Source: Escherichia phage vB_EcoM_PiR
Sequence record: OM313461
Direction: 5' to 3' (one strand)
Length of the DNA stretch: 52,936 nt
This document shows, piece by piece, positions 26,516 through 44,935 of this stretch (position 1 is the first letter of the stretch; every line of letters starts with the position of its first letter). The position numbers and the translations under genes are program-made. Below the pieces are notes generated by a model, which had not been told where the DNA came from, did no database searches, and worked only from the letters and a program-made list of their open reading frames with translations.

Positions 26516-28483
26516 TTAGTGTGCCTCTGCCCAGTTACTTTCTATCTTAGCATCAGTAAGAACAGGTACACGAAGCGGTAGTACAGTTTCCATGACCCGT
26601 ACGAAATCATAGAACCCATCTTCTGCTTGCTTACCAGACGGTAGAGAGAAGTTAAGCTCATCGTGTACAGTCAGGCGAGGTACGCCAATCACGTCAAAGT
26701 AACCGTCTTCATACCCTTTCAGCATTGCAGACTTCATCTGGTCTGCTGACGACCCTTGCAGCACTCGGTTGATTGCCTTGTGGGTGTCTGCCAGTTTAAT
26801 GTTCGGGCCATACTCCTGACGTGCTTCTTCAAATGGCAAAGGCATCTTCCCGAATCCACCACGCTTTGGTACCCACTTATTGAACCACGTCTTCCGGCCC
26901 ATAAAGGTTTCTACGTACCCCTGGCTATAACATAAATCTTCATAATGCTTCATGGTAGCACCAATGAATGGTGCGCCCTGATGGTACGCCTTCAGAACAG
27001 GTTCTGCTTCTTCAGGCGTCATTGCTAACTTACGGGCAAGAGCATTAAGCATCATGCCATATAGCAAACCAAAGTTGATGGTCTTGGCTGGTTTACGCTC
27101 TATAACGTGACCTGAGGCTTCCTTGATAATATCGACCATAACATTGTGGTAATCTGCTTCCGGGTTAGCCGCGAAAATTGCTCGTAACTCATCAGCGCCC
27201 GGGCCGACTGCAAAATGCGCCATGAATCGATATTCAATTTGGGCGTAGTCTGCTGATCCCCATCTGTGTCCGACATCCGGTACGAAACAAGCACGAAGGA
27301 GTGGTCCCAGTATTTTGTGTCGAGACGGTATATTCTGCAGATTAGGGTCAGATGAGCTAAACCGACCACTAACGGTTCCACCGTCATCACCGCGCATTTG
27401 ATGGAATTGACCGTGAAGGAAGCCATTTGTATTCATCCCCAATATATAGCCACGAATAAACGTGGACTGGATTTTTTCATAAGACTTAATCTCAGACACC
27501 AGTTCCGCAAACGGATGGTGCAAGCCTGCTAAGAAGTCTGCCGTAAACGACGGATTACCCGCCGCTGTTTTGAAGTACTCCAGACCTAAATGGTCAAATG
27601 CAAGAGCTAAGTCCGGACCTGAGTTAACGTTAATGTTAAAGCCAATCTGGTCTTTAATCTGCTGGTGCATTTTCCTTATTTCAGCGCTAAGCGTATCATC
27701 CGCCTCTTTGGCTTTATCAAGGTCAACACGCACACCTGCAAAACGCATCTTAAGCATTAATGGAATAAGCTTGCACTCCATATAGAATACATCTGTTAAA
27801 CACCAGCGACTTAACAAAGGCCACTGGGCTTTGATAATGTGTATTGGTAAGTCGGCGTCAGATTCAGCATAGTAACCCACAAGACGAGGAGGCGTTTTGT
27901 AGATGTACTTTCTGGCTTCACCTGTTGGCTTACAGCCATAAGCATCTGAAATCCATTGGTACATCTCGGCTGAGTCTTTACCTTCGCCTACATACTTTCG
28001 TCCAAGTCCTTCAAGTGCAACACGCGCGCCTGGGTCAAGTAATGCTTCCGCGAATTGTACATCCATGCACAATCCTTTAACTTCCACGCCTTCTGCTGCA
28101 AGCCAGCCCAAGTCATATGTGATGTTAGCACCGACTTTAACTTGGTTAGGTCGCGAGAGTTCGAGCCGAAGCCAACCAAGTACTTCCTCAGCTGGAAGGT
28201 TATCCTCTTCGCCGAGCTCGTGTCTGATTGGGTAGTAAGCTTTGAAGCCGTTGTCCGTAGCGATACTAACTCCAACGATATGACCCTCCCTCCTGGCCCA
28301 ACCACTACCATTTGTATCCATCCCTGGGTCGTATGTTTCACAGTCAAGACCGATAATCTTTGCAGAAGACAAATCCGGGTAATGCGCGCGCGGCCGCCAT
28401 CCAGTATCCCTGACGTATGGTATAGGACGGTTGATAGGTTTAACATTCTTTGCACCTTCGAAGCTATCGAATAAAAAGCTCAT
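26516..28483 (-). CDS. DNA polymerase, family A, with 3'-5' exonuclease domain
   Basis: exo motif LDCET; pol motifs DYAQIEYR (A), KTINFGLLYG (B), VHDE (C); GAGGGGA SD. Confidence 0.9.
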   Translation of the reverse strand: MSFLFDSFEGAKNVKPINRPIPYVRDTGWRPRAHYPDLSSAKIIGLDCETYDPGMDTNGSGWARREGHIVGVSIATDNGFKAYYPIRHELGEEDNLPAEEVLGWLRLELSRPNQVKVGANITYDLGWLAAEGVEVKGLCMDVQFAEALLDPGARVALEGLGRKYVGEGKDSAEMYQWISDAYGCKPTGEARKYIYKTPPRLVGYYAESDADLPIHIIKAQWPLLSRWCLTDVFYMECKLIPLMLKMRFAGVRVDLDKAKEADDTLSAEIRKMHQQIKDQIGFNINVNSGPDLALAFDHLGLEYFKTAAGNPSFTADFLAGLHHPFAELVSEIKSYEKIQSTFIRGYILGMNTNGFLHGQFHQMRGDDGGTVSGRFSSSDPNLQNIPSRHKILGPLLRACFVPDVGHRWGSADYAQIEYRFMAHFAVGPGADELRAIFAANPEADYHNVMVDIIKEASGHVIERKPAKTINFGLLYGMMLNALARKLAMTPEEAEPVLKAYHQGAPFIGATMKHYEDLCYSQGYVETFMGRKTWFNKWVPKRGGFGKMPLPFEEARQEYGPNIKLADTHKAINRVLQGSSADQMKSAMLKGYEDGYFDVIGVPRLTVHDELNFSLPSGKQAEDGFYDFVRVMETVLPLRVPVLTDAKIESNWAEAH

Positions 28484-29478
28484 CAGTCCCCTCTCACATA
28501 CGCAATTACAACTGTACGAGTTGAGTTTTCCATTTTGAGCGCCTGACTACCAAGCCCTATTCTTTCCATGCCTTTAGCCAGTTTACTCATCTGACTAATA
28601 ACACAGTTGAACGGTTTACTAAACTTAGTCGACTGGAACTTAATGTCGACGGACATCTTAGGAATAATCTTGTCTGGTAAGTCTGCTTTTGCTGTTGACT
28701 CGCCAGTTATCTCCAGAATGGCTTGACCTTCGTCATACCCAGTAAGCTGGTCCATAACTTCCAGGAATTCAGGAGTGATGGCCTGCATATCCATTTCCAT
28801 ATTGAAGAACTTCGATACGTCTGGCCATTTGGCTGCGAGTACCGGAGCATCCATCTGTACGCCATCCGCAAAACCGAAGAACATCTGACCGCGGGTATAT
28901 CCTACGCTTGTGGGTTCCATCTTCAGCTTAACCAGAGCCTCAAGCATTGGTTTGGCTATGGCACATTCAAATTCAAAATCTACATTCAACTTCTCGCGTA
29001 TCATATACTTACCGTTAGTGGCGTAAGCATAACCATCGCGCAGAAGTAAAGATGTTGCCCATACCTGCGGTGCTTCGTTAGGTACCCATTTGGCTAAGGC
29101 AGTTAATACCGGGAGTAATTCGCCATGTGCTGAATACCAGTTGTTAACTGTAGCAAGCGGCGGTATTGGTTCATTAAGCGCTTGCATTCTTGTTTTAAGT
29201 ACACCTGCTGTGACCGTGAGGTTTCCAGCGGCTGTAATGTTAAAAGTAATCTGTTCAGTTCTTGCCGCATTAACGGCCTTACGAAATGATTCAGCATCCA
29301 CTTGCAGGTCTGGAAATCCTTTACATGGCGCTCGTAGTAATACGTTCTTGTAGTATGAATGGATTGTTCCGTCTGCAATCCATATTTTGCCCATAAGACC
29401 ACTATCAGTATACTTGATGGGACGAGCTTGTTGAACGGCAGTCTGTATTTGTTTGGTGTCATAGTTAAACTTGCTCAT
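28483..29478 (-). CDS. hypothetical protein, possibly sliding-clamp-like polymerase accessory factor
   Basis: 331 aa adjacent to polymerase; WPDVSKFF segment resembles the beta-clamp (F/W)PDYxxV motif; weak, by eye. Confidence 0.35.
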   Translation of the reverse strand: MSKFNYDTKQIQTAVQQARPIKYTDSGLMGKIWIADGTIHSYYKNVLLRAPCKGFPDLQVDAESFRKAVNAARTEQITFNITAAGNLTVTAGVLKTRMQALNEPIPPLATVNNWYSAHGELLPVLTALAKWVPNEAPQVWATSLLLRDGYAYATNGKYMIREKLNVDFEFECAIAKPMLEALVKLKMEPTSVGYTRGQMFFGFADGVQMDAPVLAAKWPDVSKFFNMEMDMQAITPEFLEVMDQLTGYDEGQAILEITGESTAKADLPDKIIPKMSVDIKFQSTKFSKPFNCVISQMSKLAKGMERIGLGSQALKMENSTRTVVIAYVRGD

Positions 29479-29485
29479 AGTATAA

Positions 29486-29501
29486 CGGGGCCGAAGCCCC
29501 G
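29486..29501 (-). other. GC hairpin with UUCG tetraloop (as RNA: CGGGGC-UUCG-GCCCCG) at gene junction
   Basis: perfect 6-bp stem; lies between TS-like stop and next start; same core as hairpin at 35927-35946. Confidence 0.6.
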
Positions 29502-29508
29502 CTCCATC

Positions 29509-30393
29509 TTATACGGCCATTTGTAGTTTGATGTTTGGCATTGGTTTGTACTTCTCAACCATTGGCGTAACATCGGCAGGAGTGAAGTCAAACACTGACA
29601 CGTCGTAAATTGCGTTAATGTCAGGACGACCTTCAAAGTTAGTGTCCAGTGTAGTATCAGAATTGCTTACGATACGTTGCAGGAAAATCTTTGCAGCATC
29701 GATATGATTCTGATAGATGTGATAGTCACCCAGCGTAACAGTCATATCACCTACCCCAGTACCCAGCTCAGCAGCAATGGTAATCTGCAGCATTTGATGC
29801 AACAGAATATCGTGAGGCAGACCCAGAATAACATCCGCGCTACGCATGTGGAACATCAGCTCTAATTCATTGCGGTTGTTAATGAACAGCTGAAAACCAT
29901 GGTAACAAGGCGGAAGGGCCATGGCGTCCATCTCTTGTGGGTTCCATGCCGTAATGTATGCCCGGCGGTCAGTAGGCTTAACCTTCAGCGTTTCAATAAC
30001 ATCTTTAAGCTGGTTAGTAAGAACACCATTCTTGTAGAATGGCTTAATCCATTGCACGCCGTACACAGGACCTAAGTCACGGTTGTCTGGCGTACCCCAG
30101 CGTTTGTTTGCGTCCTGCAGGTTACCTTCCCACCAGTTGCAGCCAAAGCCTTTGAGCGTGTCGACGTTTGAAATACCGTTGATAAAGCAGTAAAGCTCAG
30201 CAGCAACAGCTTTGATGTTAACAGGTTTAAACACCGGCACCATCAGTTTGTTGTCGTTAAAAGCCAGCTTAAATGCTGTACCAAAACAACGGCGTGTACC
30301 AACACCTGTACGGTCTACAACATCCTCGCCTTTACGCAGGATAAAAGAAATGATGTCGCTGTAAAGAGAATCGACAGTGCTATATGTTTTCAT
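29509..30393 (-). CDS. thymidylate-synthase-fold enzyme, predicted dCMP-specific (dCMP hydroxymethylase or methylase)
   Basis: aligns to ThyA: DRTGxGT, DLGPVYG, catalytic Cys in ALPPCYHGFQ, RSxD, GDYHIYQNH; specificity Asn replaced by Asp in GLPHD. Confidence 0.8.
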   Translation of the reverse strand: MKTYSTVDSLYSDIISFILRKGEDVVDRTGVGTRRCFGTAFKLAFNDNKLMVPVFKPVNIKAVAAELYCFINGISNVDTLKGFGCNWWEGNLQDANKRWGTPDNRDLGPVYGVQWIKPFYKNGVLTNQLKDVIETLKVKPTDRRAYITAWNPQEMDAMALPPCYHGFQLFINNRNELELMFHMRSADVILGLPHDILLHQMLQITIAAELGTGVGDMTVTLGDYHIYQNHIDAAKIFLQRIVSNSDTTLDTNFEGRPDINAIYDVSVFDFTPADVTPMVEKYKPMPNIKLQMAV

Positions 30394-30986
30394 TAAAACA
30401 GTTCCTTTTGAGCCGGGTTAACGTGTGCGTCGATGATGGCCTGGATGTCAGGTGCTTTCCATCCTTCAGGCTTAACAATATCCTGACCAGACTTATGCTT
30501 ACTGTTGCTTGCATCAGGCTTAGCACGTTCTTTCGCCATGTTAGCAACTTGTACCGCATCCCATGCTGCGTCGAGTGGCCAGTTGTTGTTTGCACACCAG
30601 GTAATCAGGTGGATAATTAACTGGGCCAGACGGTCGCAATGAGTGTCTTCAGTATCCTTAACGTATACAATAAGGCCGTCAGCATCGAAGCGGTCCATAA
30701 ATCCGCATGGCGTAGTTAACAGAATCGGATACTCAAATTCGTTGGTGAACCATGCAGTCTGGTCATACAGATATAACGTACCTGCAGCAATGTAAATTAA
30801 ATCTACAATACCGTCTAAGAATCCAGCTTTATCGCCGTCCTTCTTAGCTTGTTTAATTTCTTCCATCTCCTCAATAAGACGGTCATAGCGAAGCTTGAAC
30901 TCAGGTTTACCGCCTTGACTAACAGGCTTGAGGTCAAACTTCTCATGAAAAGCGGTAACGCCTGCAGCAATTTTACTGAATCGCAT
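30393..30986 (-). CDS. MazG-like nucleoside triphosphate pyrophosphohydrolase (probable)
   Basis: EEMEEI ... DGIVDLIYIA acidic helix motifs typical of all-alpha NTP pyrophosphatases; TAATG overlap with TS-like gene. Confidence 0.5.
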   Translation of the reverse strand: MRFSKIAAGVTAFHEKFDLKPVSQGGKPEFKLRYDRLIEEMEEIKQAKKDGDKAGFLDGIVDLIYIAAGTLYLYDQTAWFTNEFEYPILLTTPCGFMDRFDADGLIVYVKDTEDTHCDRLAQLIIHLITWCANNNWPLDAAWDAVQVANMAKERAKPDASNSKHKSGQDIVKPEGWKAPDIQAIIDAHVNPAQKELF

Positions 30987-31371
30987 TTCGTAACTCCTTA
31001 CAAACAGTTTCGATAAACTTACGCTTAATTTCTGTAGACCAGATAATATGACGAGCCTGTTCTAAAGTGTCCCAACGTTCTTTACCCACAGGAAAGGGAA
31101 CAATGAAAAGGCCGGTACGGGATATGCGCTTGATAAACGGGAATTTACAGCGCATGGTTGTTTCAAACTTGATAAAGTTGGTTTGCACTTCGCGTGTAAA
31201 CTTGACCTTATCAAATTCATGTTCAAGAGTTTGAGCAAGGTTGCATACTTCCTGGAAAGAAGATGTGGGTAAATAATCTTCGCGGCCGACGGTGTTCACG
31301 TAGTCGATTTGGCCTTCGAGTCGAAGTATCCAAATCCTGTAATAAGCTTCAGCAACACGTTGTAGGTTCAT
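30973..31371 (-). CDS. hypothetical protein
   Basis: ATG 31371 with GAGGAGAG SD. Confidence 0.55.
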   Translation of the reverse strand: MNLQRVAEAYYRIWILRLEGQIDYVNTVGREDYLPTSSFQEVCNLAQTLEHEFDKVKFTREVQTNFIKFETTMRCKFPFIKRISRTGLFIVPFPVGKERWDTLEQARHIIWSTEIKRKFIETVCKELRNAIQ

Positions 31372-31397
31372 TGTATCTCTCCTCTAAAAGATAACTT

Positions 31398-31426
31398 ATT
31401 ATACCACATCACTCTCTAGTGGTAAA
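31398..31426 (-). promoter_or_regulatory. sigma70-like promoter TTTACC-N17-TATAAT (minus strand)
   Basis: reverse complement of 31421-31426 is TTTACC and of 31398-31403 is TATAAT, 17-bp spacer. Confidence 0.55.
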
Positions 31427-31445
31427 GCACTTTTTATGCTTCGGG

Positions 31446-31477
31446 TAAAAATAAAAAGGACCAGCGTTAACTGGTCC
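31446..31477 (-). terminator. rho-independent terminator
   Basis: stem GGACCAG/CTGGTCC (31458-31464/31471-31477), 6-nt loop; on minus strand followed by UUUUUAUUUUU. Confidence 0.7.
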
Positions 31478-31739
31478 TTTTGGCAGGGTGGCGTAAGGAG
31501 ATACAAGGAATCGCAGTTATGCAACCAGGCAGCGCATATGAGATTGGCTAAAGGACTGACCGACTTAATCCCCGCGACGAGTCGAAAGGAGGTACCATCA
31601 AGTAGCCAATCACATATGCGTTACTTGCTGTGTGCTCTTACCACAGAAAGTATATAGCGTTACACTTATCACACAGTTGTAGTGGCAAAAGCACACAGCA
31701 AGTACAACCTTAGTTGTGGTGTCTTAGCACCTGAGTTAT

Positions 31740-31748
31740 TGTGGATAA
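31740..31748 (-). promoter_or_regulatory. perfect DnaA box TTATCCACA
   Basis: reverse complement of 31740-31748 is TTATCCACA; lies in 565-bp non-coding region between 12-bp inverted repeats TAGTTGTGGTGT (31711-31722 / 31784-31795). Confidence 0.5.
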
Positions 31749-32047
31749 CCTGCACCCGACGGGTGTCAAAAAGATACGCCAAAACACCACAACTAAAATT
31801 GTGACCGCCGTCTACACCAGGCGCCTGGGGTCAAGGTAGCGAGCCAATACCCTTTTCAGCGTCGGAGGAATCGAACCTCACACATCACGGCTTTTACCAA
31901 ATCTCGGTCAGCGAGCAGAATTGAACTGCATTCACTGGACACCCTCACTGTTTCAACACACCAGGCTTAATTGATTGTTGATAAGAAGAGAGATGTAAGG
32001 ATGTCCATTGAATGCACCTCCGTAGAGGTGCGTTCAGATCAGCGCTA

Positions 32048-32515
32048 TTATTCAGCAACTTCTTCGTTGTCGCCTTCGATCGCGCCAGCCAGTTTAGCAG
32101 CTTCAGCTTTAGCAGCTTCTGCTTTCTGGCGAGCTTTTTCAGCTTTCTCTTCAGCTTTGCGAATCTGCTCAGCAGCTTTCGCTTCGGCTTTTTCAGCTTT
32201 GATGCGAGCACGCTCTTCAGCTTTACGCTGTTTTTCAGCGGCTTTAGCAGCATCGCGTTCTGCTTTAGCGGTATCAACACGCTTAGCCAGAACTTTACCA
32301 GTGGCTTTACGCCAGTAGGTCAGCTGGGAAGAAACAGTACCACGGGACATTTCGGTAGTGGCAACAACTTCGTCCATAACGTCAGAGCTGGACTTGCCTT
32401 CTTCATGGGCTTTATCAGCCAGGTCCCATACGTAACGTGCGCCAGTACCAGCTGCCGGATACAGTACGCCGTTAACTTCTTCTTTACCAGTTACAAAAGT
32501 CAGTTTCTCGCTCAT
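32048..32515 (-). CDS. hypothetical protein with Ala/Lys/Glu-rich low-complexity C-terminal tail
   Basis: start re-assigned to ATG 32515 with GAGGAA SD; C-terminal KAEE/AKAA repeats. Confidence 0.6.
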   Translation of the reverse strand: MSEKLTFVTGKEEVNGVLYPAAGTGARYVWDLADKAHEEGKSSSDVMDEVVATTEMSRGTVSSQLTYWRKATGKVLAKRVDTAKAERDAAKAAEKQRKAEERARIKAEKAEAKAAEQIRKAEEKAEKARQKAEAAKAEAAKLAGAIEGDNEEVAE

Positions 32516-32563
32516 AATTTTTTCCTCGTCTACAGGGCTTAATGTTTGTTCGTTACGTGAGTT

Positions 32564-32592
32564 AATATACGTCATTTAAAAGAGAGTGTAAA
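32564..32592 (-). promoter_or_regulatory. sigma70-like promoter TTTACA-N17-TATATT (minus strand)
   Basis: reverse complement of 32587-32592 is TTTACA and of 32564-32569 is TATATT. Confidence 0.55.
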
Positions 32593-32621
32593 CACCTTTT
32601 TTAAACTTTTTTCATTAGTGT

Positions 32622-32849
32622 CTAGAAAGGCACATCATAGTCAAAAAGTTTACATCCGGAAGACAGGACTGCCGGCGGTGGTGTTTTGCCTCCGGATAAT
32701 AGACAACCTCCTGCCTGAAAGCTACGGCAGTTCGCACAGCTCATATCCTGCAGGTATATAATAAGCTGCCGGCGAACGTGCCGAGGCAAAGCTTTAGCCT
32801 GGGTTGCTACCCGTTCAAATAGTTCTCTGTCATCGAGCGCCATAGCCAT
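32622..32849 (-). CDS. small Cys-containing protein (hypothetical)
   Basis: 75 aa with CANC...GGC...GC cysteines; overlaps helicase 3' end by 20 nt. Confidence 0.4.
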   Translation of the reverse strand: MAMALDDRELFERVATQAKALPRHVRRQLIIYLQDMSCANCRSFQAGGCLLSGGKTPPPAVLSSGCKLFDYDVPF

Positions 32850-34500
32850 TCCCCCAGTCGTAGTTCATGATTTGTGGGTAGGGTCGTTTAATCCATACCT
32901 TGATGCGCTTAGGAATAGCCAGCTCACCCTTACGGCGAATAAACTCATCGCATGTTTCAGGCGGTTCGGTTCCTGCAGCATTACGCCACCAGGCATCTGC
33001 CATTTGCTTAGCATTACCATGGGCCTCAATATTTACCCAAGTTGTGTACACTTCCAGGTTTGAATAATACACAACCTTTATACTGTCAGGCCGTCCTTGC
33101 TTCTGGAATAAAGAATAGTTTACCAGCGTAACATCCTTATCCACAACACGAAGCTGACCGTTAGTCATTACCTCTTCTTCTGATGAAGTGAAGGCAATAG
33201 CAGGTCCGTTAACTGTAAATTCAAATTCATGTCCGCACATCGGATATACACCATTCTCGTCTGGCGTACTTCCTTTAGCCGGATGTTTACATGTACGAGC
33301 AGCATAACCACTTACCTGGTGGCAGATAGGGCACTCTTTACCGCCAGGTGTTTTCTCTGACCGTTTCTTTTTCTTCTTACCAAGACGTGGCGGAACAGCC
33401 GGGTCATCAATAGGACCAAGGTCAATGGTGTTAGATGTGAAGTCCATAACAAGACAGTCATGCTTACCAGGCGCTGTACGTAATCCTCGACCGAGTATCT
33501 GCACCCACAAGGCAACAGACGTGGACGGGCGCAAGATGCCGAGCATATCAATTTCAGGATAGTCAAAGCCTGTTGTCAATACGTTTACGTTTACGCATAC
33601 CCTGGCACGTCCGCTTGTAAACTCTTCCAGTGCGGCTTCACGTTCTTTCTTTGTAAGACCGCCATGCACAACTACAGTCTGCCACCCGCGCAGATTAAAT
33701 TCGTCTGCTATGTTGTGGGCGTGCTCAACACTTGTGGCAAATACAAGAACGTGGTTCCTGTCTTTACCGTAGTGCATCATCTCACGAATAGCCGCGACTG
33801 TTATACTATGCTGGTTGGCTACCTTCTCGAGCTCTGACGGGATATAGTCACCCATCCTTTCGCCAACATTACTGGTGTCAATCTTGGTTAACACTTTCTT
33901 GTTGACCAGGCGCGACAGGAAGCCTTCATTTACCAGTCGGGTGAATGCGTCAGGTGTTGTAAGGTCATAGCAGATGTCGGTAAATATACCACAGTCAAGC
34001 AAGTGACCACCTGCCAGTCGATACGGAGTTGCTGTAAGGCCTGTTACCTTTACCTTAGGATTAAGCTCTTTGAAATGAGCAATAACCTTACGGTATGTTG
34101 TTTCAGACTTCTCAGGAACGAGATGGGCTTCGTCAATGAATATAAGATTGAACTTACCTGCTTCTTCCAGGTTCTTAATAATCGACTGTACTGACGCTAC
34201 AACTATACGACCTGAAAAGTCTATGTGTCCTGCACCTGAAGAGTAGATTGATACTGGTGCTTGTGCCCAGTGGCGAACAATTGCTTTGGCGTCTTGTTCT
34301 ACCAGCTCCTTGACGTGTGTCAATATAAGAATGCGCTGACGTGGATAGCTGGTAAGAATATCCTTCATCAACATACCAAGCACAGGTGATTTACCTGAAC
34401 CTGTTGGCATGACAATAAGTGGGTTACCACTATAAGAATTGAAGTACGACCACCAAGCGGTCACAGCTTCTTGTTGATACCAGCGAGCTTCAAAAGCCAT
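32830..34500 (-). CDS. SF2 DEAD/DEAH-box DNA helicase
   Basis: motif I MPTGSGKS, motif II FIDEAH, SAT-like TATP, C-terminal Cys cluster CPICH...C; GAGGAGA SD. Confidence 0.75.
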   Translation of the reverse strand: MAFEARWYQQEAVTAWWSYFNSYSGNPLIVMPTGSGKSPVLGMLMKDILTSYPRQRILILTHVKELVEQDAKAIVRHWAQAPVSIYSSGAGHIDFSGRIVVASVQSIIKNLEEAGKFNLIFIDEAHLVPEKSETTYRKVIAHFKELNPKVKVTGLTATPYRLAGGHLLDCGIFTDICYDLTTPDAFTRLVNEGFLSRLVNKKVLTKIDTSNVGERMGDYIPSELEKVANQHSITVAAIREMMHYGKDRNHVLVFATSVEHAHNIADEFNLRGWQTVVVHGGLTKKEREAALEEFTSGRARVCVNVNVLTTGFDYPEIDMLGILRPSTSVALWVQILGRGLRTAPGKHDCLVMDFTSNTIDLGPIDDPAVPPRLGKKKKKRSEKTPGGKECPICHQVSGYAARTCKHPAKGSTPDENGVYPMCGHEFEFTVNGPAIAFTSSEEEVMTNGQLRVVDKDVTLVNYSLFQKQGRPDSIKVVYYSNLEVYTTWVNIEAHGNAKQMADAWWRNAAGTEPPETCDEFIRRKGELAIPKRIKVWIKRPYPQIMNYDWGNGYGAR

Positions 34501-34558
34501 TTAACGTCTCCTCATTAACTTCATATATTATACCACTTCCTTGTGGTGATGTATACTT

Positions 34559-35437
34559 TTATTTTAAGGAAAGTTTAACGGGCTTCTCATCCTGTGGGAA
34601 GACATCAGCAGGGCGATACTCATCGCAAGCCGCTAATTGCTCTTCGATTGTTTCGAGTTCTTTCTGGTGCTTGTTGCAGTACCACACTTTGCCCTGAAGC
34701 GGTTTACTGTAATGGCAGGTTCTGCAGTTCCTGTCTGGCATTGCTCCTTTGTGGCACAAGTGATGGTATTCGCACATCCCTGGTTTGCACTCCCACCAAA
34801 TAGGCGATTCAGAAATCTTCGGCATATCCAAACCAGATTCCGCATATACAACAGCCTCCGCTTTACTCAGTTGTATGTCGCTTTCCAGTAAGTCAATCTC
34901 GACCACTTCAAAATACATCTCGTCAGTGTTCTTGTTGATTGCAATATACACAGCTTGATTCAGCTTAAGCTTCCGCATGTACACCTGCATCTGGGCGTAG
35001 TGTACCGGCTTACTTGCTTTAACAGACTTGAGCTTGACTAACTCTTTAAACGACTTATCGCCATGCGTCTTGAATTCAGCAAGTGCCCATACGCCTTTGT
35101 ATTTAATTACACAGTCACAAGACCCAGAGAAGATGTCATTGAAGTCGTGTATGCGCCATTGCTTACCAGTCTTGGGATTGACGTCCAGCACTTCGTCACA
35201 TACGGAACGAAGCCACTTTACAATTCTGCTTTCTTCAAGGTTACCACGTTCAAACAGACGAAGTTGCTTAGCTGTAAACTTCTCCTTGAACGACCAGTGC
35301 AGAACGTGCCAAAGATAGCGATAGCAGTTGTGTCCTATCTGCGATGCTCCAAGATGCCCGCGTCGTTCTTCTCTTTCATGGGCTTCGACTATCTTGATGT
35401 CAATACGTTTCTGCAGGTCGTTAAACGGACTGGGCAT
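34559..35437 (-). CDS. Cas4/RecB-like PD-(D/E)xK nuclease with C-terminal Cys cluster
   Basis: D...EFK nuclease-like motif and CKPGMCEYHHLC Cys cluster; start re-assigned to ATG 35437 with GAGGAG SD. Confidence 0.55.
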   Translation of the reverse strand: MPSPFNDLQKRIDIKIVEAHEREERRGHLGASQIGHNCYRYLWHVLHWSFKEKFTAKQLRLFERGNLEESRIVKWLRSVCDEVLDVNPKTGKQWRIHDFNDIFSGSCDCVIKYKGVWALAEFKTHGDKSFKELVKLKSVKASKPVHYAQMQVYMRKLKLNQAVYIAINKNTDEMYFEVVEIDLLESDIQLSKAEAVVYAESGLDMPKISESPIWWECKPGMCEYHHLCHKGAMPDRNCRTCHYSKPLQGKVWYCNKHQKELETIEEQLAACDEYRPADVFPQDEKPVKLSLK

Positions 35438-41019: not shown

Positions 41020-41457
41020 CTATTTGTATAAGTCCATCCAGTTACGATACTCGTCATAAAACCGGTCAAACTCGTTTTTGGTGAGTGCAATAGCAACACC
41101 ATTTACCAGATGCATGGTTCGTGTTTTGATGTTGACATACATGACATTGCTGTACGGGAATAAGCTACCGTCATTGTCAGTAAAATAAGTAGGTGTAATA
41201 TGAAGCGCATCACGCAATGCAACCAGTGATTCAACAGCTTCAGCGTGCCATTCACGTTTGAAGGTCATGCAAGGCGGTGCACCGTCTTCGTCCTGGGTAC
41301 CGCGCAAAGTAAGGTATACAATTTCGGCAGTATCATTGTGTACAATTACGCTAATGTCAACGATGTCGCTGGTACGGAAGGTAACAAAGTGCTCTTCAAT
41401 TACTTGTTCGTCGGTATTAGGGCTGACGCCCTGAAAGGTCTTGAGTGTGTGAAACAT
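41020..41457 (-). CDS. hypothetical protein, first gene of minus-strand replication operon
   Basis: start re-assigned to ATG 41457 with AAGGAGA SD. Confidence 0.55.
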   Translation of the reverse strand: MFHTLKTFQGVSPNTDEQVIEEHFVTFRTSDIVDISVIVHNDTAEIVYLTLRGTQDEDGAPPCMTFKREWHAEAVESLVALRDALHITPTYFTDNDGSLFPYSNVMYVNIKTRTMHLVNGVAIALTKNEFDRFYDEYRNWMDLYK

Positions 41458-41488
41458 TGGTTGTATCTCCTTAGCAGAATGTACGTCT

Positions 41489-41517
41489 ATTATGTATATA
41501 AAGGAGGGGAAAGTAAA
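41489..41517 (-). promoter_or_regulatory. sigma70-like promoter TTTACT-N17-CATAAT (minus strand)
   Basis: reverse complement of 41512-41517 is TTTACT and of 41489-41494 is CATAAT; divergent from plus promoter at 41551. Confidence 0.5.
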
Positions 41518-41550
41518 TAGATATAAATGTATAAAATACATAAAAGTCTA

Positions 41551-41580
41551 TTTACTCTGGTTTAATAACGTGTATATAAT
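41551..41580 (+). promoter_or_regulatory. sigma70-like promoter TTTACT-N18-TATAAT
   Basis: -35 41551-41556, -10 41575-41580; AAGAGGAGAGA SD before ATG 41611. Confidence 0.55.
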
Positions 41581-41610
41581 GAGAGCCTCACAAACAAGAG
41601 GAGAGACTCA

Positions 41611-41943: not shown

Positions 41944-44452
41944 TATTCTCGGTCTGAAATACTTTAAGCCAGAAGGGATTCCCCAAGTCTTCAAAGATAT
42001 GAAGCGCTGGGCTATCTTTGAGCTGACGTACGAAGACGAGACTCTCGAAGTTCAATCCAAACCTAAGAAACCTGCAAGAGCGCCATCAGGCCGTTCCTTC
42101 AGCACAACTGTGCCTGAAGAGTGGATGACTTTCGACGACGCCCTGTCACGTTGTATTCGCAATCGTGAAATGAAGATTAAAGCTGTACAGGGGAATATCA
42201 CCTTTGTGCCGGCTTTGGTTGTTCCTCGCCAGTGGTACTTTGTTGACCTGGACAACCATGAAGATAACCCAGACATTGAAGCTACCCACAAAGCGATAAT
42301 TGAAGGGACTCGTGGTGCTTATGCCGAGACGTCAATCTCTGGCAAAGGGCAACACATTGCAATCCCTTTACCCTGGACTGCAGCAACATCTAAAGAGAAA
42401 GACGAACAACTGGACATCAAAATCCAGAAGGCTGAGATGTTCCTGGTAATGACAGGCAATGTATTGAGTGAGTTCAATGCTAATCCTGTTTCAGCCCGTG
42501 AATGGCATGCAGCAATTGAGAAGTTCTTTCTTGAATCAAGCGCACCTGATATTGATGTTGAGTTTGAGCAAGACGAAGACCGTGGCGAAGAGTATGACAA
42601 AGAGCTGTACGAACAGCTAGCCGACAATACTCGCTGGGCGCTTGAGCACTATCTTAGCGACTACGCACCAGACGGTGTTGGTGTGAGTAATGACGGTTCT
42701 GAACGTTTAAGCCGTATCTTAAAAGACTTGCTTCGTGTAACCCGTAACTATGAAGTTACACAACGCATCTTCATGGCCAGCAAAGCTGCAGCATACGAAG
42801 GTCGTCGTGCAAGTCGACATAGTTTGTCTGTTGACAAGTACCATCAGTGGTTCAGTCGTGTTGGTAAGACTGTGCTGAAAGAGATGCAACGTGATGGCTT
42901 ATTCGTCAAGACCAAGTTTGCTCTTGACATCAACAAAGAGTTAACCAAGAATTCTGGGGTGTCACTGGCTGAGAACGTTGAGTTCAAAGTCAACGACGAT
43001 ATTCTGCCATCTGACGTATTTGTCAGAACGGCCCCGTCCGGGTTTAAACGGCTTATTGCTGAGATACAGGATAACATATCTCCGGCTAACAGGGTTAACG
43101 ACTATGCAATTGGCACAGCTCTTAACATCCTGAGCAACTGCGCCGGTCGTAAGTATGTTTGTCCAGTAGGCGGTCATGCTAACTTCCTGGTAACCAACAT
43201 CATTCTTGTGGGTGGTTCATCAATCGGTAAATCGTTGTATACCGAGATGTTCCCACAAATCCAGGCAAGTTTACCTGACACATCGCCTATCAGCCTTAAT
43301 CGGATTCCAAGGGAACAGACTTTTGCAACCAGGACGTTCGCTGAACTGATGGCTAACCCGTCATACCATTCAGTCCAGTTGTTCTACCCTGAATTTGGTC
43401 TGGCTTTAGGTTCTGGCTTACGCATGAATCCTAACAACCCTGACAACTTTCAGAAAGCTCTGATGGACGCTTCAACCAAGCGTAAGGTTGGCGGTATACT
43501 GACAGGTATCAAACGTGCTAATGCTGACAATGATGTCAAGACAGTAAGCGAACCATGCTACTCTATCCTGGGGGACTCAACTCAAGAGCTTATCCTTGAC
43601 AACACCCGGAAGCAAGACTTCTCAAGTGGCTTTTTGCCCCGCTTCCTGTTCATCCCGAACTATGAGCGAGCGGAGTTTGCCAAACCTGAGAAGGTAGGAC
43701 GTCGCCAGCAGATTCGCCGTACTCAATTCTCCAAAGAGCTGATTGAGAAACTGGAAGCAATCGCTTATGTGAATGCTATCCCGCCTAACGGTAAACTAAG
43801 GCACGACCCGATTCCTATTTACGACGAATCGGATGATGATGACTTCCTGTACGAATACCAGTGCAATATTAATGATATGCGCCAGTATTACAGGGATAAC
43901 GAAGTAGCATCTGCCTTTGTGGGCCGAATGGGCGAGTATGTATTCAATATAGCAGCACTGATTGGACTACTCGATAACTGGGATGCTCCTGTTATGACCA
44001 GGGACAACATCGAATGGGCTTACAAATATGTTCTTCGTTGTATAACCGCCTGGGTCAATAACACAAGCAGGATAGTCGCACCACCAACTACCAACGCCGA
44101 AGTAGTGGACGGCTTCCTAAAAGTCTACAGGGACATTTTGGCCCTTTACACCAAAAGAGGATGGTCTGGCATTGTCAAGCATTATCCCGAAGGTGTTGTA
44201 AGAAGTATCCGGGAAGAACACCTCCAGATGAATGGTTTAAGCATATATGCTATTCGTCAGTCTTTGAGCTGGTTTAAATCGAATTACGGTTTTAACATCA
44301 CAGCTAATAACAAAGTCATTGACGGTATGCTCCAGGATATGATTGACCAGGACTATTTAGCAGTACAAGTATATAAGCCCACAAGAGGCCGATCTGCTAA
44401 CATTTACTGCCTGACGGAGCGAGGATATGACACTGCTAAGAAGTTAAAATAA
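41918..44452 (+). CDS. DNA primase (primase-polymerase-type) fused to SF3/D5-like helicase
   Basis: N-terminal WYFVDLDNHED acidic motif (DxD-type); central Walker A VGGSSIGKS; 844 aa. Confidence 0.6.
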   Translation: MTMTSQPSDILGLKYFKPEGIPQVFKDMKRWAIFELTYEDETLEVQSKPKKPARAPSGRSFSTTVPEEWMTFDDALSRCIRNREMKIKAVQGNITFVPALVVPRQWYFVDLDNHEDNPDIEATHKAIIEGTRGAYAETSISGKGQHIAIPLPWTAATSKEKDEQLDIKIQKAEMFLVMTGNVLSEFNANPVSAREWHAAIEKFFLESSAPDIDVEFEQDEDRGEEYDKELYEQLADNTRWALEHYLSDYAPDGVGVSNDGSERLSRILKDLLRVTRNYEVTQRIFMASKAAAYEGRRASRHSLSVDKYHQWFSRVGKTVLKEMQRDGLFVKTKFALDINKELTKNSGVSLAENVEFKVNDDILPSDVFVRTAPSGFKRLIAEIQDNISPANRVNDYAIGTALNILSNCAGRKYVCPVGGHANFLVTNIILVGGSSIGKSLYTEMFPQIQASLPDTSPISLNRIPREQTFATRTFAELMANPSYHSVQLFYPEFGLALGSGLRMNPNNPDNFQKALMDASTKRKVGGILTGIKRANADNDVKTVSEPCYSILGDSTQELILDNTRKQDFSSGFLPRFLFIPNYERAEFAKPEKVGRRQQIRRTQFSKELIEKLEAIAYVNAIPPNGKLRHDPIPIYDESDDDDFLYEYQCNINDMRQYYRDNEVASAFVGRMGEYVFNIAALIGLLDNWDAPVMTRDNIEWAYKYVLRCITAWVNNTSRIVAPPTTNAEVVDGFLKVYRDILALYTKRGWSGIVKHYPEGVVRSIREEHLQMNGLSIYAIRQSLSWFKSNYGFNITANNKVIDGMLQDMIDQDYLAVQVYKPTRGRSANIYCLTERGYDTAKKLK

Positions 44453-44463
44453 GTAAGTAAATC

Positions 44464-44505
44464 AAGGGCTTGGGTAATTGTAAAAATCCTAAGCCCTTAT
44501 TTTTT
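44464..44505 (+). terminator. rho-independent terminator
   Basis: 11-bp stem AAGGGCTTGGG/CCTAAGCCCTT (one G-U), 13-nt loop, then ATTTTTT. Confidence 0.65.
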
Positions 44506-44619
44506 AAGCTTATTTTACAAACTGATTAATATTTAAACTATAATTAAATATATGGGCTCTAAGAGTATGATTTTATTACTCTTTTACAAATCATAATATA
44601 TGAGCTCCTTATAAAAGAT

Positions 44620-44835
44620 TAAGGGGGTAAAAAAGGGGGATACAAGAACCGGATAAAGGGGGTATATATTTATTTATTATTATTATTATTATTATATATT
44701 ATTAATTATATTAGAAGTAATAAAAACAGCTACTTAGAGGCGTCTATATGTATGATCCGGTTTATCTCTTTATTAATATCAGAACCGGATGAAAAAAATT
44801 TACGCTGGTGAAAAAAATAAAAAAGCCGGATTGAT
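44620..44835. repeat. AT-rich iteron cluster (putative replication origin)
   Basis: three AAGGGGG(T/A) copies (44620-44665), ACCGGAT-type motif four times in both orientations (44647, 44753, 44782, 44825), (ATT)n microsatellite 44671-44695. Confidence 0.5.
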
Positions 44836-44852
44836 AAATAAATCTGTAGACG

Positions 44853-44881
44853 TTTACACTGTAAAAAAGATGTGCTACAAT
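44853..44881 (+). promoter_or_regulatory. sigma70-like promoter TTTACA-N17-TACAAT with extended -10 TG
   Basis: -35 44853-44858, TGCTACAAT at 44873-44881. Confidence 0.6.
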
Positions 44882-44935
44882 ATTTATCAATGTTGCTGAT
44901 TACCAAAACTTTGAATTGTATACGAGGCTGAATAA

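What the first reader, a model, noticed from the sequence alone, without database searches (positions are those of the whole stretch)
31483..32047. 565-bp ORF-poor region with perfect DnaA box, long inverted repeats and palindromes inside the replication operon
No convincing CDS lies here (the 73-aa track ORF spans an inverted repeat and lacks an SD). The region contains a perfect DnaA box TTATCCACA (minus strand, 31740-31748), a degenerate copy TTATCACACA (31666-31675), 12-bp inverted repeats TAGTTGTGGTGT (31711-31722 / 31784-31795) flanking the DnaA box, an 18-bp inverted repeat with one mismatch (31533-31550 / 31603-31620) and a 12-bp palindrome CCAGGCGCCTGG (31817-31828). It could be a host-DnaA-dependent origin, a regulatory hub, or a structured non-coding RNA.
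Basis: seen in the sequence. Interest (0 to 1): 0.6.

Follow-up and report, generated by a model that had tools for sequence, protein, structure and literature searches.

The report
Phage tRNA-mimic RNA cassette, not origin
The gene-free stretch is not a DnaA-dependent replication origin but a heavily folded non-coding RNA region, sitting where related phages carry tRNA genes, and its core belongs to a widespread, apparently unannotated family of phage RNAs that imitate the elbow of a tRNA.

Summary
The window is a JEP7-like Rosemountvirus.

On the minus (gene) strand, 31372-32047 reads: gp37 stop, about 570 nt of structure, intrinsic terminator, sigma-70 promoter, gp36. The fold is far more stable than shuffles (z -10.5). 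It is strand-asymmetric through G.U pairs and keeps its helices through compensatory changes across lineages.

In Erwinia phage SOI901 and two metagenomic relatives the same slot holds tRNA-Pro and tRNA-Gln. Here it holds a roughly 130-nt RNA (31802-31929). This has two T-arm hairpins, GG-containing D-loop-like loops, an invariant linker UCGCUGRCCGAG and a covarying closing helix.

The same unit occurs in at least 87 distinct viral-contig sequences and in Cellulophaga and Rhizobium phages, often directly after a tRNA. Rfam 15 has no model for it. [quoted passage not shown]

The single perfect DnaA box lies in one conserved hairpin. There is no box cluster, AT-rich element or skew shift, and a viable phage (rivia) lacks 31751-31895.

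Function is inferred, not shown: a tRNA mimic flanked by processing or stabilising hairpins.

The parts
32564..32592 (-). Sigma-70-like promoter upstream of gp37; presumed start of the transcript that carries the structured region
   Evidence: TTTACA-17-TATATT, 10/12. BP63 record annotates a promoter at the equivalent place. Consensus match only.
32048..32515 (-). gp37 (JEP7_37), conserved protein of unknown function with a Lys/Ala/Glu-rich tail; last CDS before the RNA region
   Evidence: 83-85% aa identity even to Erwinia phage SOI901; no Pfam; phrog_28664.
32014..32031 (-). Short G+C-rich hairpin (hp0) just after the gp37 stop codon
   Evidence: I6. The stem is kept in SOI901 with one compensatory pair (A-U in six sequences, C-G in SOI901); the L014 row is largely mispaired in that alignment.
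31928..32015 (-). Element A: long hairpin, present in all relatives, including those that carry tRNAs
   Evidence: 9 compensatory pairs of 22 counted, hp0 plus element A; -32.0 kcal/mol minus sense against -23.8 plus sense; I4.
31915..31929 (-). T1: T-arm-like hairpin GCAG-UUCAAUU-CUGC
   Evidence: 27 different T1 stems among 87 family members; loop UUCRANY.
31903..31914 (-). Invariant linker UCGCUGACCGAG; UGACCG (31905-31910) is the 5' strand of the closing helix
31892..31902 (-). AUUUGGUAAAA: D-loop-like GGUAA segment after the linker
   Evidence: GGUAA 29 and GGUGA 20 of 87 members. The D-loop analogy is inference.
31865..31879 (-). T2: second T-arm-like hairpin GAGG-UUCGAUU-CCUC
   Evidence: 96.9% of cells paired; 4 of 5 pairs with compensatory change; 0 of 500 shuffles; 35 different stems.
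31828..31852 (-). AS2: hairpin after T2, in the position of the closed 'acceptor' stem-loop of YrlA; conserved loop GCUCGCUACC within this clade
   Evidence: (stem GGGU/ACCC here, CCGG/CCGG in KE25, GGCAGU/ACUGCC in L012).
31806..31823 (-).
   Evidence: (GG in the last hairpin loop invariant in 15 environmental members). Assignment in the window is by analogy.
31802..31807 (-). CGGUCA: 3' strand of the closing helix, pairing with 31905-31910
   Evidence: A-U 8, G-C 4; A-U 15, G-C 12, 0 discordant; A-U 9, G-C 6; Cellulophaga phage: all four pairs changed, UAUU/AAUA.
31708..31798 (-). H3: long hairpin with two small apical hairpins; holds the perfect DnaA box (31740-31748)
   Evidence: -41.0 against -30.1; 6 G.U pairs; 4 compensatory pairs; single copy, only in the Rosemount, Loughborough and KE25 clades; different position in KE25; 5' half deleted in rivia.
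31622..31704 (-). H2: long hairpin with a stem of about 22 bp, homologous to the hairpin that follows the tRNAs in SOI901 and L014
   Evidence: only miRNA-precursor-like sub-threshold hits, reflecting hairpin shape; -44.3 against -32.7; 7 compensatory pairs; I2.
31533..31620 (-). H1: long hairpin found only in Rosemountvirus; apical part varies between two haplotypes
   Evidence: I1.
31447..31481 (-). Intrinsic terminator (12-bp stem, loop UUAA, U-run) ending the structured transcript
   Evidence: Conserved in all lineages including SOI901, with compensatory changes.
31398..31426 (-). Sigma-70-like promoter with extended -10 (TGgTATAAT) for gp36
   Evidence: nearly invariant in all relatives.
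30973..31371 (-). gp36 (JEP7_36), first gene after the RNA region
   Evidence: phrog_36727, unknown function.

Best explanation
Shown: the region is the untranslated, highly structured 3' part of the gp37 transcription unit on the minus strand. It is closed by an intrinsic terminator and followed by the gp36 promoter. It occupies a cassette slot that holds tRNA-Pro(UGG) and tRNA-Gln(UUG) in related phages.

Its core (31802-31929) is one member of a widespread phage RNA family. The family unit is:
- a T-arm hairpin (T1);
- an invariant linker UCGCUGRCCGAG;
- a GGU(A/G)A segment;
- a second T-arm hairpin (T2);
- a variable hairpin (AS2);
- a last hairpin with GG in its loop (D2);
- a closing helix.

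That arm order (stem-V-T-AS-D-stem) is that of a circularly permuted tRNA, as in the tRNA-like domain of YrlA Y RNAs. Four long hairpins (A, H3, H2, H1) flank the core.

Inferred: the RNA is made from the gp37 promoter. The T-loops dock on the GG loops to form one or two tRNA-like elbows. Host tRNA-handling factors then recognise these elbows; candidates include RNase P, TruB/TrmA, nucleases or other elbow binders. The RNA therefore acts in trans as a tRNA mimic, either as a decoy or as an adaptor.

The long stems of about 20 bp or more would serve as processing sites (RNase III-type) and as 3'-exonuclease blocks. These would separate the RNA from the gp37 message and stabilise it.

The DnaA box is part of a conserved apical sequence of hairpin H3. 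Its meaning is unresolved, but it is not the core of an origin.
For: Layout: terminator and promoters are co-oriented with all neighbouring genes.

Structure:
- z = -10.5 for the minus strand against -8.2 for the plus strand.
- A, H3 and H2 are 8-12 kcal/mol more stable in the minus sense because of G.U pairs.
- Compensatory pairs are seen in A, H3 and H2, T1 and the closing helix and T2.

Selection: the non-coding identity to Loughboroughvirus is about 83% over 80% of the region. Four-fold degenerate sites of the flanking genes are only 59-68% identical.

Slot: tRNA-Pro and tRNA-Gln occupy it in SOI901 and L014, and tRNA-Gln, Asp and Pro follow the gp37 homologue in L018.

Family:
- 87 of 111 distinct sequences have a T1 stem, and 64 of those have T2.
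- The closing helix shows A-U 15, G-C 12 and no discordant case.
- RNAalifold on 15 environmental sequences predicts T1, the closing helix and T2 on its own.
- A covariance model built without any Rosemountvirus sequence hits the window once: 31818-31933 minus strand, 35.4 bits, E about 3.5e-7.

tRNA link: a tRNA ends within 30 nt upstream of T1 in 13 of 87 members. In Cellulophaga phage phi19:3 the match starts 3 nt after tRNA-Cys. In Rhizobium phage RHph_N38 the blastn match starts 16 nt, and the model match 8 nt, after tRNA-Gln.

Architecture: the arm order matches that described for YrlA (PMC4201824; bioRxiv 10.1101/312249).
Against: - No expression, processing or binding data exist for this RNA; no paper was found.
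- Phage rivia lacks 31751-31895, which removes T2, AS2, D2, the closing 3' strand and half of H3. The full domain is therefore dispensable for plaque formation on its isolation host.
- The D-like elements are degenerate in the window and have no canonical D stem.
- Family members were collected with a pattern that fixes the linker and the T-loop, so conservation of those bases is partly by ascertainment.
- T2 hairpins were picked by requiring a stem.
- No conserved protein partner lies next to the RNA, and there is no Ro60 gene in the large ORFs tested.
- Model E-values are rough.
Confidence: 0.55

Rival explanations
1. The elements act only in cis. The hairpins and tRNA-like folds would be processing, insulation and stability signals for the operon transcript: RNase III, E or P sites and 3' protection of the gp37 message. 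They would be inherited from a tRNA cassette in which they released the tRNAs, and the RNA would have no function in trans.
For: Element A and the H2-type hairpin flank the tRNA pair in SOI901 and L014. The stems are long and near-perfect. The region ends in a terminator. The rivia deletion is tolerated. In short-type family members a U-run follows the closing helix directly, so the unit sits at a transcript end.
Against: A cis signal does not explain a 12-nt linker that is invariant, nor T-loop and GG-loop features kept across unrelated phages of Bacteroidota, alpha- and gammaproteobacterial hosts with no shared neighbouring genes. Simple stabilising hairpins need no multi-branched, covarying domain.
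Confidence: 0.22
2. The RNA is a ligand- or tRNA-sensing cis-regulator (riboswitch or attenuator). Its closing helix plus a downstream U-run would control read-through into the next gene.
For: It is a multi-stem junction with highly conserved joining strands. In short-type members a U-run follows the closing helix and an ORF starts about 25-40 nt later. The linker can form an alternative small hairpin (CUCG/CGAG) that excludes the closing helix, seen in the sequences.
Against: In the window about 320 nt of hairpins and a separate strong terminator plus promoter lie between the domain and the next gene. Downstream genes differ between phages. No known riboswitch model matches.
Confidence: 0.08
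3. The region is a replication origin or another DNA-level element that uses host DnaA at the TTATCCACA box, with the inverted repeats extruding as hairpins in single-stranded DNA. The DnaA-box hairpin of the ABC-primosome A site is the analogy (own knowledge).
For: A perfect DnaA box is invariant in Rosemountvirus, Loughboroughvirus and the KE25 group although its flanks vary. The region lies among replication genes. Three perfect boxes occur in the window against 0.5 expected. There is a loose local excess of one-mismatch boxes at 30.6-33.2 kb.
Against: - Only one box is conserved; the others lie in CDSs or are not conserved.
- There is no AT-rich element: 48% GC, with the most AT-rich windows elsewhere.
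- GC skew follows transcription, with no change here.
- The module is absent from SOI901, L012 and L014 and sits at another position in KE25.
- rivia lacks the 5' arm of the hairpin.
- G.U-dependent strand asymmetry and the A-to-G variant next to the box (U-A to U.G) fit RNA pairing rather than a duplex site.
- In the fold the box is half in a 5-bp stem and half in a loop, not in a duplex stem.
Confidence: 0.07
4. The T-arm-like pieces are decaying tRNA pseudogenes and the rest is neutral spacer.
For: The slot holds tRNAs in relatives. Neither ARAGORN nor Rfam finds an intact tRNA here.
Against: The region is more conserved than synonymous sites of its neighbours. The same unit recurs in unrelated phages with covariation. 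Similarity to the relatives' tRNA-Pro and tRNA-Gln is limited to the T-loop, and H3, H2, H1 and A show none.
Confidence: 0.03
5. The region encodes small proteins, as annotated in some relatives (up to four 'hypothetical proteins').
For: ORFs of 30-73 aa exist and are called in some records.
Against: Calls are inconsistent between near-identical genomes, and most records annotate nothing. The 73-aa ORF is on the opposite strand and spans the terminator and H1, which Loughboroughvirus lacks. Substitutions preserve base pairs, not reading frames.
Confidence: 0.02

Closest known systems
tRNA-like domain of bacterial YrlA Y RNAs (Chen et al. 2014, PMC4201824; Wang et al. 2018, bioRxiv 10.1101/312249)
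   Same: The arm order is that of a circularly permuted tRNA: closing stem, variable region, T-arm, closed 'acceptor' hairpin, D-type loop with GG, closing stem. The T-loop is UUCRANY. Both are linked to tRNA genes, and YrlA is proposed to derive from a dimeric tRNA, while this slot holds a tRNA pair in relatives.
   Different: There is no Ro60/TROVE gene in the large ORFs tested. The Ro60 motif GNCGAAN0-1G is not present; the linker reads GRCCGAG. An extra 5' T-arm and an invariant 12-nt linker are present. T and D stem sequences are not conserved as they are in YrlA. The D stem is degenerate. No match to any Rfam 15 model was found.
Phage tRNA gene clusters (here tRNA-Pro(UGG) and tRNA-Gln(UUG) of Erwinia phage SOI901 and contig L014)
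   Same: Same genomic slot, same flanking hairpins (A and the H2 type), same terminator and promoter. T-arm hairpins are present.
   Different: There is no acceptor stem, anticodon arm or CCA end. ARAGORN and RF00005 do not detect it. It cannot decode.
Large phage-associated ncRNAs found next to tRNA genes (GOLLD, ROOL) and the stable 'species 1/2' RNAs of the T4 tRNA region (own knowledge)
   Same: Structured non-coding RNAs of unknown function, carried by phages and lying beside or among tRNA genes.
   Different: No Rfam hit to GOLLD or ROOL in the window or in 18 other loci. The conserved unit is only about 100-130 nt. No comparison with the T4 RNAs could be run.
RNase III processing hairpins of phage T7 early mRNA (own knowledge)
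   Same: Long intergenic hairpins with stems of about 20 bp or more and internal loops, co-transcribed with early or replication genes.
   Different: Four hairpins lie in tandem with no genes between them. Cleavage is untested.
DnaA-box origins (oriC type) and the DnaA-box hairpin of the ABC-primosome A site (own knowledge)
   Same: A perfect TTATCCACA sits inside a long inverted repeat within a replication gene module.
   Different: A single box, no AT-rich unwinding element, no iterons, and the box is not in a duplex stem of the hairpin. It is not conserved beyond three clades and part of it is deletable.

Membership tests
Phage double-T-loop tRNA-like RNA family defined here (model R1) | 5' hairpin with a 7-nt T-loop UUCRANY (T1) directly followed by UCGCUGRCCGAG | tested here: met
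   Window 31903-31929.
Phage double-T-loop tRNA-like RNA family defined here (model R1) | Second T-loop hairpin (T2) within 90 nt of the linker | tested here: met
   31865-31879.
Phage double-T-loop tRNA-like RNA family defined here (model R1) | Closing helix between GRCC of the linker and a downstream GGYC, with R:Y covariation | tested here: met
   31905-31910 with 31802-31807.
Phage double-T-loop tRNA-like RNA family defined here (model R1) | Significant full-length match to a covariance model built without sequences of this clade | tested here: met
   One hit in the window, 31818-31933 minus strand, 35.4 bits, E about 3.5e-7 (rough calibration). The 3' end of the match differs by 16 nt from my closing-helix assignment.
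tRNA (RF00005) | Cloverleaf with a 7-bp acceptor stem, anticodon arm and D and T arms in canonical order | tested here: not met
   ARAGORN finds 0 genes in the window and in close relatives. Rfam gives no tRNA hit at E up to 10 on 31795-32035.
Y RNA, YrlA type | Permuted tRNA-like module: T arm, closed acceptor-like hairpin and D-type GG loop inside a stem formed by flanking strands | tested here: met
   Predicted structures and covariation, compared with the descriptions in PMC4201824 and bioRxiv 10.1101/312249. This is architecture only.
Y RNA, YrlA type | Ro60-binding motif GNCGAAN0-1G (CGAA) in the 5' strand of the terminal stem | tested here: not met
   The 5' strand reads UGACCGAG (GRCCGAG in the family).
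Y RNA, YrlA type | Encoded next to a Ro60/TROVE gene | tested here: not met
   No TROVE domain was found in the window proteins scanned, which include four of the eight ORFs of 450 aa or more. The other four are annotated DNA polymerase, helicase and primase-helicase or lie in the plus-strand structural arm (7429-10386, unscanned). Not every ORF was scanned, and the 13 loci were not examined for it.
Y RNA, YrlA type | Binds Ro60 (host Rsr in Salmonella) | not testable with these tools
   Needs immunoprecipitation or EMSA.
DnaA-dependent replication origin | Cluster of several DnaA boxes (TTWTNCACA) | tested here: not met
   One consensus box in the region. Only that box and one coding-sequence site are conserved across clades.
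DnaA-dependent replication origin | Adjacent AT-rich DNA unwinding element | tested here: not met
   Region 48% GC; lowest 40-nt window 32.5% GC, at the 6th percentile of the genome; the most AT-rich windows lie at about 41.4, 44.5 and 48.8 kb.
DnaA-dependent replication origin | Compositional skew shift at the site | tested here: not met
   Skew tracks gene orientation, with turning points near 26 kb and 41-49 kb. This is weak evidence in phages.
DnaA-dependent replication origin | DnaA binding and initiation at the site | not testable with these tools
   Needs footprinting, ChIP or initiation mapping.
GOLLD / ROOL large phage ncRNAs | Match to the Rfam covariance model | tested here: not met
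   No hits.
Intrinsic terminator | G+C-rich stem-loop followed by a U-run, co-oriented with the operon | tested here: met
   31481..31454 minus strand, 12-bp stem, UUUUUAUUUUU; conserved.
RNase III substrate | About two turns of near-continuous double-stranded RNA (own knowledge) | tested here: inconclusive
   Predicted stems in H2, H3 and A are about 20 bp or longer (32, 40 and 29 predicted pairs overall). Cleavage cannot be predicted reliably.

The most novel reading that the evidence does not exclude
The core of this region represents a widespread, so far unannotated family of phage-encoded, circularly permuted 'double-elbow' tRNA mimics. On this reading the units are exchanged as cassettes with genuine tRNA genes in the same slot. 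They would act in trans on conserved host tRNA-handling machinery, for example as decoys for tRNA-targeting defence nucleases or as Y-RNA-like adaptors that redirect host RNases.
Probability: 0.3. Interest if true: 0.8.

Novelty: new variant of a known kind. Interest (0 to 1): 0.62.

Why it matters
Phage tRNA genes are increasingly read as counter-measures to host tRNA-cleaving defences. An RNA that keeps only the tRNA elbow, replaces tRNA genes in the same slot and recurs in unrelated phages of several bacterial phyla would be a separate, RNA-only way of engaging host tRNA machinery.

It would also give a natural side-by-side case for the proposed origin of Y-RNA-like mimics from dimeric tRNAs: a tRNA pair in SOI901 against a permuted mimic here.

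In practice, dozens of Rosemountvirus and Loughboroughvirus genomes used as biocontrol candidates either leave this 0.6-kb stretch blank or fill it with spurious small ORFs. A covariance model would annotate it correctly. The work also removes a tempting but unsupported origin call.

Tried and rejected
- Rfam on the window and 18 other loci gave only sub-threshold miRNA-precursor-like hits that reflect hairpin shape, plus tRNAs in neighbours.
- ARAGORN found no tRNA or tmRNA here.
- I tested whether H3, H2, H1 and A derive from the relatives' tRNA-Pro or tRNA-Gln. Local alignment against shuffles was not significant (p 0.06-1.0), and only the T-loop of the core domain scored. The appealing 8-mer plus 7-mer match of H3 to tRNA-Pro is rejected.
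- An acceptor-like pairing of CAGUGA with UCGCUG around T1 is not conserved in KE25 and was dropped.
- The exact 19-mer scan of bacterial genomes returned 26 hits. All but one are coding-sequence chance matches; L057 is a Rosemountvirus contig inside a MAG. No host homologue exists in 5,426 E. coli genomes, apart from two phage genomes filed as plasmids.
- Neighbouring proteins of family members share no common partner.
- gp36 and gp37 have no Pfam domain.
- The abiF RNA hit (29.1 bits against a gathering score of 37) is in contig L035, not in the window; element A gave no such hit.
- Literature searches for the motif sequence, Rosemountvirus ncRNAs and phage tRNA mimics found nothing specific.
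- The first count of structure pairs used a closing helix mis-indexed by one column and was repeated.
Full report
**Identity and layout**

The window matches Escherichia phage JEP7 (Rosemountvirus; 52,936 bp, same coordinates). All genes from about 26.5 to 41.5 kb are on the minus strand. The finding lies in the 676-bp gap between gp37 (32048-32515) and gp36 (30973-31371).

Read on the minus strand, the order is:
- gp37 stop codon;
- about 570 nt without a credible ORF;
- an intrinsic terminator (31481..31454; 12-bp stem, then a U-run);
- a sigma-70-like promoter with an extended -10 (31426..31398);
- gp36.

A second promoter-like site lies upstream of gp37 (32592..32564). No promoter-like site was found inside the region on that strand.

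**Checking the observation**

The repeat finder reports four long inverted repeats:
- H1: 31526-31550 / 31603-31627;
- H2: 31622-31644 / 31682-31704;
- H3: 31704-31728 / 31778-31802;
- element A: 31927-31948 / 31995-32016.

It also reports the terminator, a short hairpin after the gp37 stop and the 31817-31828 palindrome.

'TTATCACACA' is not a DnaA box. Aligned by eye as a 9-mer it has four mismatches to TTATCCACA. The perfect box at 31740-31748 is real.

The window has three perfect boxes against 0.5 expected, and the other two lie inside CDSs. Boxes with at most one mismatch number 17 against 13.9 +/- 3.6 expected.

**RNA or DNA?**

The minus strand folds to -242.9 kcal/mol against -181.6 +/- 5.9 for shuffles (z -10.5). 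The plus strand reaches -212.2 (z -8.2).

Taken one by one, element A, H3 and H2 are 8-12 kcal/mol more stable in the minus sense because they use 3-6 G.U pairs. A duplex-DNA palindrome has no reason to prefer G.T over A.C, so this points to a single-stranded minus-sense molecule, which is the transcript.

A natural variant next to the box (CCACAAUAAC to CCACAGUAAC in birk, rivia, emiel and yarpen) turns a U-A pair into U.G in that sense.

**Conservation**

Forty-three phage records carry the region at 94.5-99.6% identity. Loughboroughviruses match at about 83% over 80% of it, and the KE25/fHy-Eco03 group matches in blocks.

Against S144, four-fold degenerate sites of gp36, gp37 and the MazG-like gene are only 59-68% identical. 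The non-coding blocks are therefore under purifying selection.

Helices are kept through compensatory changes:
- 9 of the 22 pairs counted for hp0 plus element A, across lineages that include the tRNA-bearing relatives;
- 4 in the basal stem of H3;
- 7 in H2 and its counterparts.

H1 is an insertion specific to Rosemountvirus. Within the genus, variation is concentrated in the apical parts of H1 and H2, in two haplotypes.

**The slot holds tRNAs in relatives**

Searching with the conserved gp37 protein retrieved more distant loci:
- In Erwinia phage SOI901 and metagenomic contig L014, the interval between the gp37 and gp36 homologues contains tRNA-Pro(UGG) and tRNA-Gln(UUG). These are flanked by element A upstream and an H2-type hairpin downstream, with the same terminator and promoter.
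- In the distant L018, tRNA-Gln, Asp and Pro follow the gp37 homologue.
- In Erwinia phage RF1 and contigs L015-L017 the gap is only about 160 nt and gp36 is absent.

The window and its close relatives have no detectable tRNA.

**The core is a member of a widespread RNA family**

Between element A and H3 the window has two hairpins with tRNA T-loop sequences: GCAG-UUCAAUU-CUGC (T1, 31915-31929) and GAGG-UUCGAUU-CCUC (T2, 31865-31879).

An exact scan of IMG/VR with the 19-mer that follows T1 found 16 loci, 11 of them outside this phage group.

Of 111 distinct sequences:
- 87 have a T1 stem of at least 4 bp, and 64 of these have a second T-loop hairpin within 90 nt;
- the 24 without a T1 stem look like coding or chance matches, and only one of them has a T2.

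Among the 87 there are 27 different T1 stems and 35 different T2 stems. Loops follow UUCRANY, and the first GG after the linker reads GGUAA or GGUGA in 49 of them.

The purine in UCGCUGRCC covaries perfectly with a pyrimidine in a downstream GGYC: A-U 15, G-C 12, no discordant case.

Further support:
- On a 12-sequence alignment, T1 plus the closing helix are 94.8% paired against 25-68% when the partners are slid.
- T2 is 96.9% paired, with compensatory change at 4 of 5 positions. The T2 hairpins were chosen by requiring a stem, which inflates this figure.
- RNAalifold on 15 environmental sequences predicted T1, the closing helix (A-U 9, G-C 6) and T2 without guidance. In that alignment the GG in the loop of the last hairpin is invariant.
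- A covariance model built from those 15 sequences alone finds one match in the whole window: 31818-31933 minus strand, 35.4 bits, E about 3.5e-7 with rough calibration.
- The same model also matches S144, KE25, L012, Cellulophaga phage phi19:3 (45.3 bits) and Rhizobium phage RHph_N38 (48.9 bits).
- It gives a truncated match in rivia, and only weak T-arm hits in the tRNA-bearing relatives.
- In the Cellulophaga phage all four closing-helix pairs are changed yet kept (UAUU/AAUA).

**Link to tRNAs and to YrlA**

A tRNA lies within 300 nt of 22 of the 87 members and ends within 30 nt upstream of T1 in 13. In phi19:3 the match starts 3 nt after tRNA-Cys. In RHph_N38 the blastn match starts 16 nt, and the model match 8 nt, after tRNA-Gln(UUG), with tRNA-Pro(UGG) further upstream. 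In L044 the unit follows tRNA-Cys and tRNA-Phe.

The arm order inside the closing helix is: variable region, T arm, a closed hairpin often capped by a GNRA loop, then a hairpin or loop carrying GGUA-type sequence. This is the order described for the tRNA-like domain of YrlA Y RNAs, which are thought to derive from dimeric tRNAs (PMC4201824; bioRxiv 10.1101/312249).

In tRNA, the T-loop pairs with G18 and G19 of the D-loop to form the elbow (own knowledge). By analogy the unit could form one or two elbows.

It is not a YrlA by the tests I could run:
- the 5' strand reads GRCCGAG, not GNCGAA;
- no TROVE domain was found in the window proteins scanned, though not every ORF was scanned;
- no Rfam 15 model matches it in the window or in 18 other loci.

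Neighbouring genes of family members are unrelated to one another. They include exonuclease, SSB-like and RecT-like genes, DnaB- and DnaC-like genes and a terminase (by eye from the translations). No conserved partner emerged. That argues for a conserved host target rather than a phage partner.

**The DnaA-box hairpin**

H3 has a long basal stem and two small apical hairpins, CACCC-GUC-GGGUG and GUUAU-CCACA-AUAAC. The box spans the second stem and its loop.

The 19-mer GCAGGUUAUCCACAAUAAC is invariant in three clades. It occurs once in the window and only in this phage group in IMG/VR.

In the KE25 group the whole hairpin sits between element A and T1 instead of after the core. L012, L014 and SOI901 lack it.

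Phage rivia has a 145-bp deletion (window 31751-31895) that removes T2, AS2, D2, the closing 3' strand and the 5' half of H3. It keeps T1, the linker and the box.

Several further points argue against an origin:
- only one other DnaA-like site, inside gp36, is conserved across clades;
- the region is 48% GC;
- the most AT-rich 40-nt windows lie at about 41.4, 44.5 and 48.8 kb;
- GC skew simply follows gene orientation.

An origin here is therefore unlikely. Why the box sequence is conserved remains unexplained.

**Most likely mechanism**

Shown:
- a co-oriented, terminated, conserved, strand-specific structured region;
- cassette equivalence with tRNA genes;
- membership of a large covarying RNA family with T-loop and GG-loop features.

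Inferred:
- transcription from the gp37 promoter;
- folding into tRNA-like elbows;
- recognition by host tRNA-handling factors;
- trans action as a mimic (decoy or adaptor);
- the long hairpins acting as RNase III-type processing sites and exonuclease blocks.

I put about 0.55 on this package. Roughly 0.8 applies to 'functional structured RNA that includes a tRNA-like family member', and much less to any particular target. The main rival is a purely cis role in processing and stability (0.22). Riboswitch-like control (0.08), a DnaA or DNA-level element (0.07), pseudogene debris (0.03) and small proteins (0.02) follow.

**Novelty and limits**

I found no description of this RNA in Rfam 15 or in the searchable literature. 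It may still exist under a name I did not hit.

The family was collected with patterns that fix the linker and T-loop, so its true diversity and the conservation of those bases are not yet measured. Model E-values are rough. There are no expression data.

I rate it a new variant of a known kind (tRNA-like ncRNAs) and of moderate to high interest.

Noticed in passing
window 28372-35047, especially 31437-31680: The window has the length and coordinates of GenBank JEP7 (MT764207) but differs from it at 53 positions in this 6.7-kb stretch. 24 of these cluster in the apical parts of H1 and H2 and in the tail. There the window carries the haplotype of emiel, yarpen and rivia rather than that of the JEP7 record, which suggests a recombinant patch or a different isolate or version.
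   Followed up: partly
L035:1578-1613 (IMG/VR contig; similar in L033): Directly upstream of the T1 hairpin, this contig has a hairpin matching the Rfam abiF RNA motif in nearly all conserved loop bases (29.1 bits, gathering 37, E 0.079). If real, an AbiF-associated RNA look-alike sits next to the tRNA-like unit in some phages. Element A of the window shares only AAGCCU with it.
   Followed up: partly
window 32048-32515 (gp37): gp37 is unusually conserved (82-85% aa identity from E. coli/Salmonella phages to an Erwinia phage, while gp36 drops to 43-45%). It has a Lys/Ala/Glu-rich C-terminal tail and no Pfam domain. Its homologue in fHy-Eco03 is annotated as virion-associated by LC-MS/MS. A nucleic-acid-binding role next to the RNA region is conceivable.
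   Followed up: partly
window 30608-33145: Six of the 17 DnaA-box-like 9-mers (at most 1 mismatch) fall within 2.6 kb around the region (30608, 31082, 31264, 31740, 31976, 33137). Only two are conserved in other clades, so I treat this as a post-hoc cluster.
   Followed up: partly
window ~41400-41610, ~44400-44900 and ~48800: These hold the most AT-rich 40-nt windows of the genome. The first is the divergent intergenic region between the minus-strand operon and the primase-helicase arm. They are better a priori origin candidates than the finding.
   Followed up: no
L074 (Rhizobium phage RHph_N38), L008 (SOI901), L014, L018: The same pair, tRNA-Pro(UGG) and tRNA-Gln(UUG), recurs in unrelated phages. 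In RHph_N38 it directly precedes the tRNA-like unit.
   Followed up: no
Records PP583539.1, NZ_CP067310.1, NZ_JBVNBN010000003.1; locus L057: Rosemountvirus genomes appear under unexpected labels: a 'Listeria phage', two 53-kb E. coli 'plasmids' in RefSeq, and a contig of a 'Bacillota' MAG. These are probably contamination, carrier state or mislabelling.
   Followed up: no
MW413353.1 (Salmonella phage SPHG1; L026): The region matches in three pieces and at seven places in a 47-kb record, which suggests a scrambled assembly.
   Followed up: no
Family members L033, L079, L096, L116, L126, L137 and others (3' of the closing helix): Many long-type members continue with a conserved UGACAG-CCGG-GAAAGA-CCGG-CA hairpin right after the closing helix. 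The window has H3 at that position. The full extent of the family RNA is therefore not yet defined.
   Followed up: no
window 31398-31449 and equivalents in all loci: The gp36 promoter (GCTTTACC...TGgTATAAT) and the terminator before it are almost invariant from Rosemountvirus to Erwinia phage SOI901. They are far better conserved than gp36 itself.
   Followed up: no
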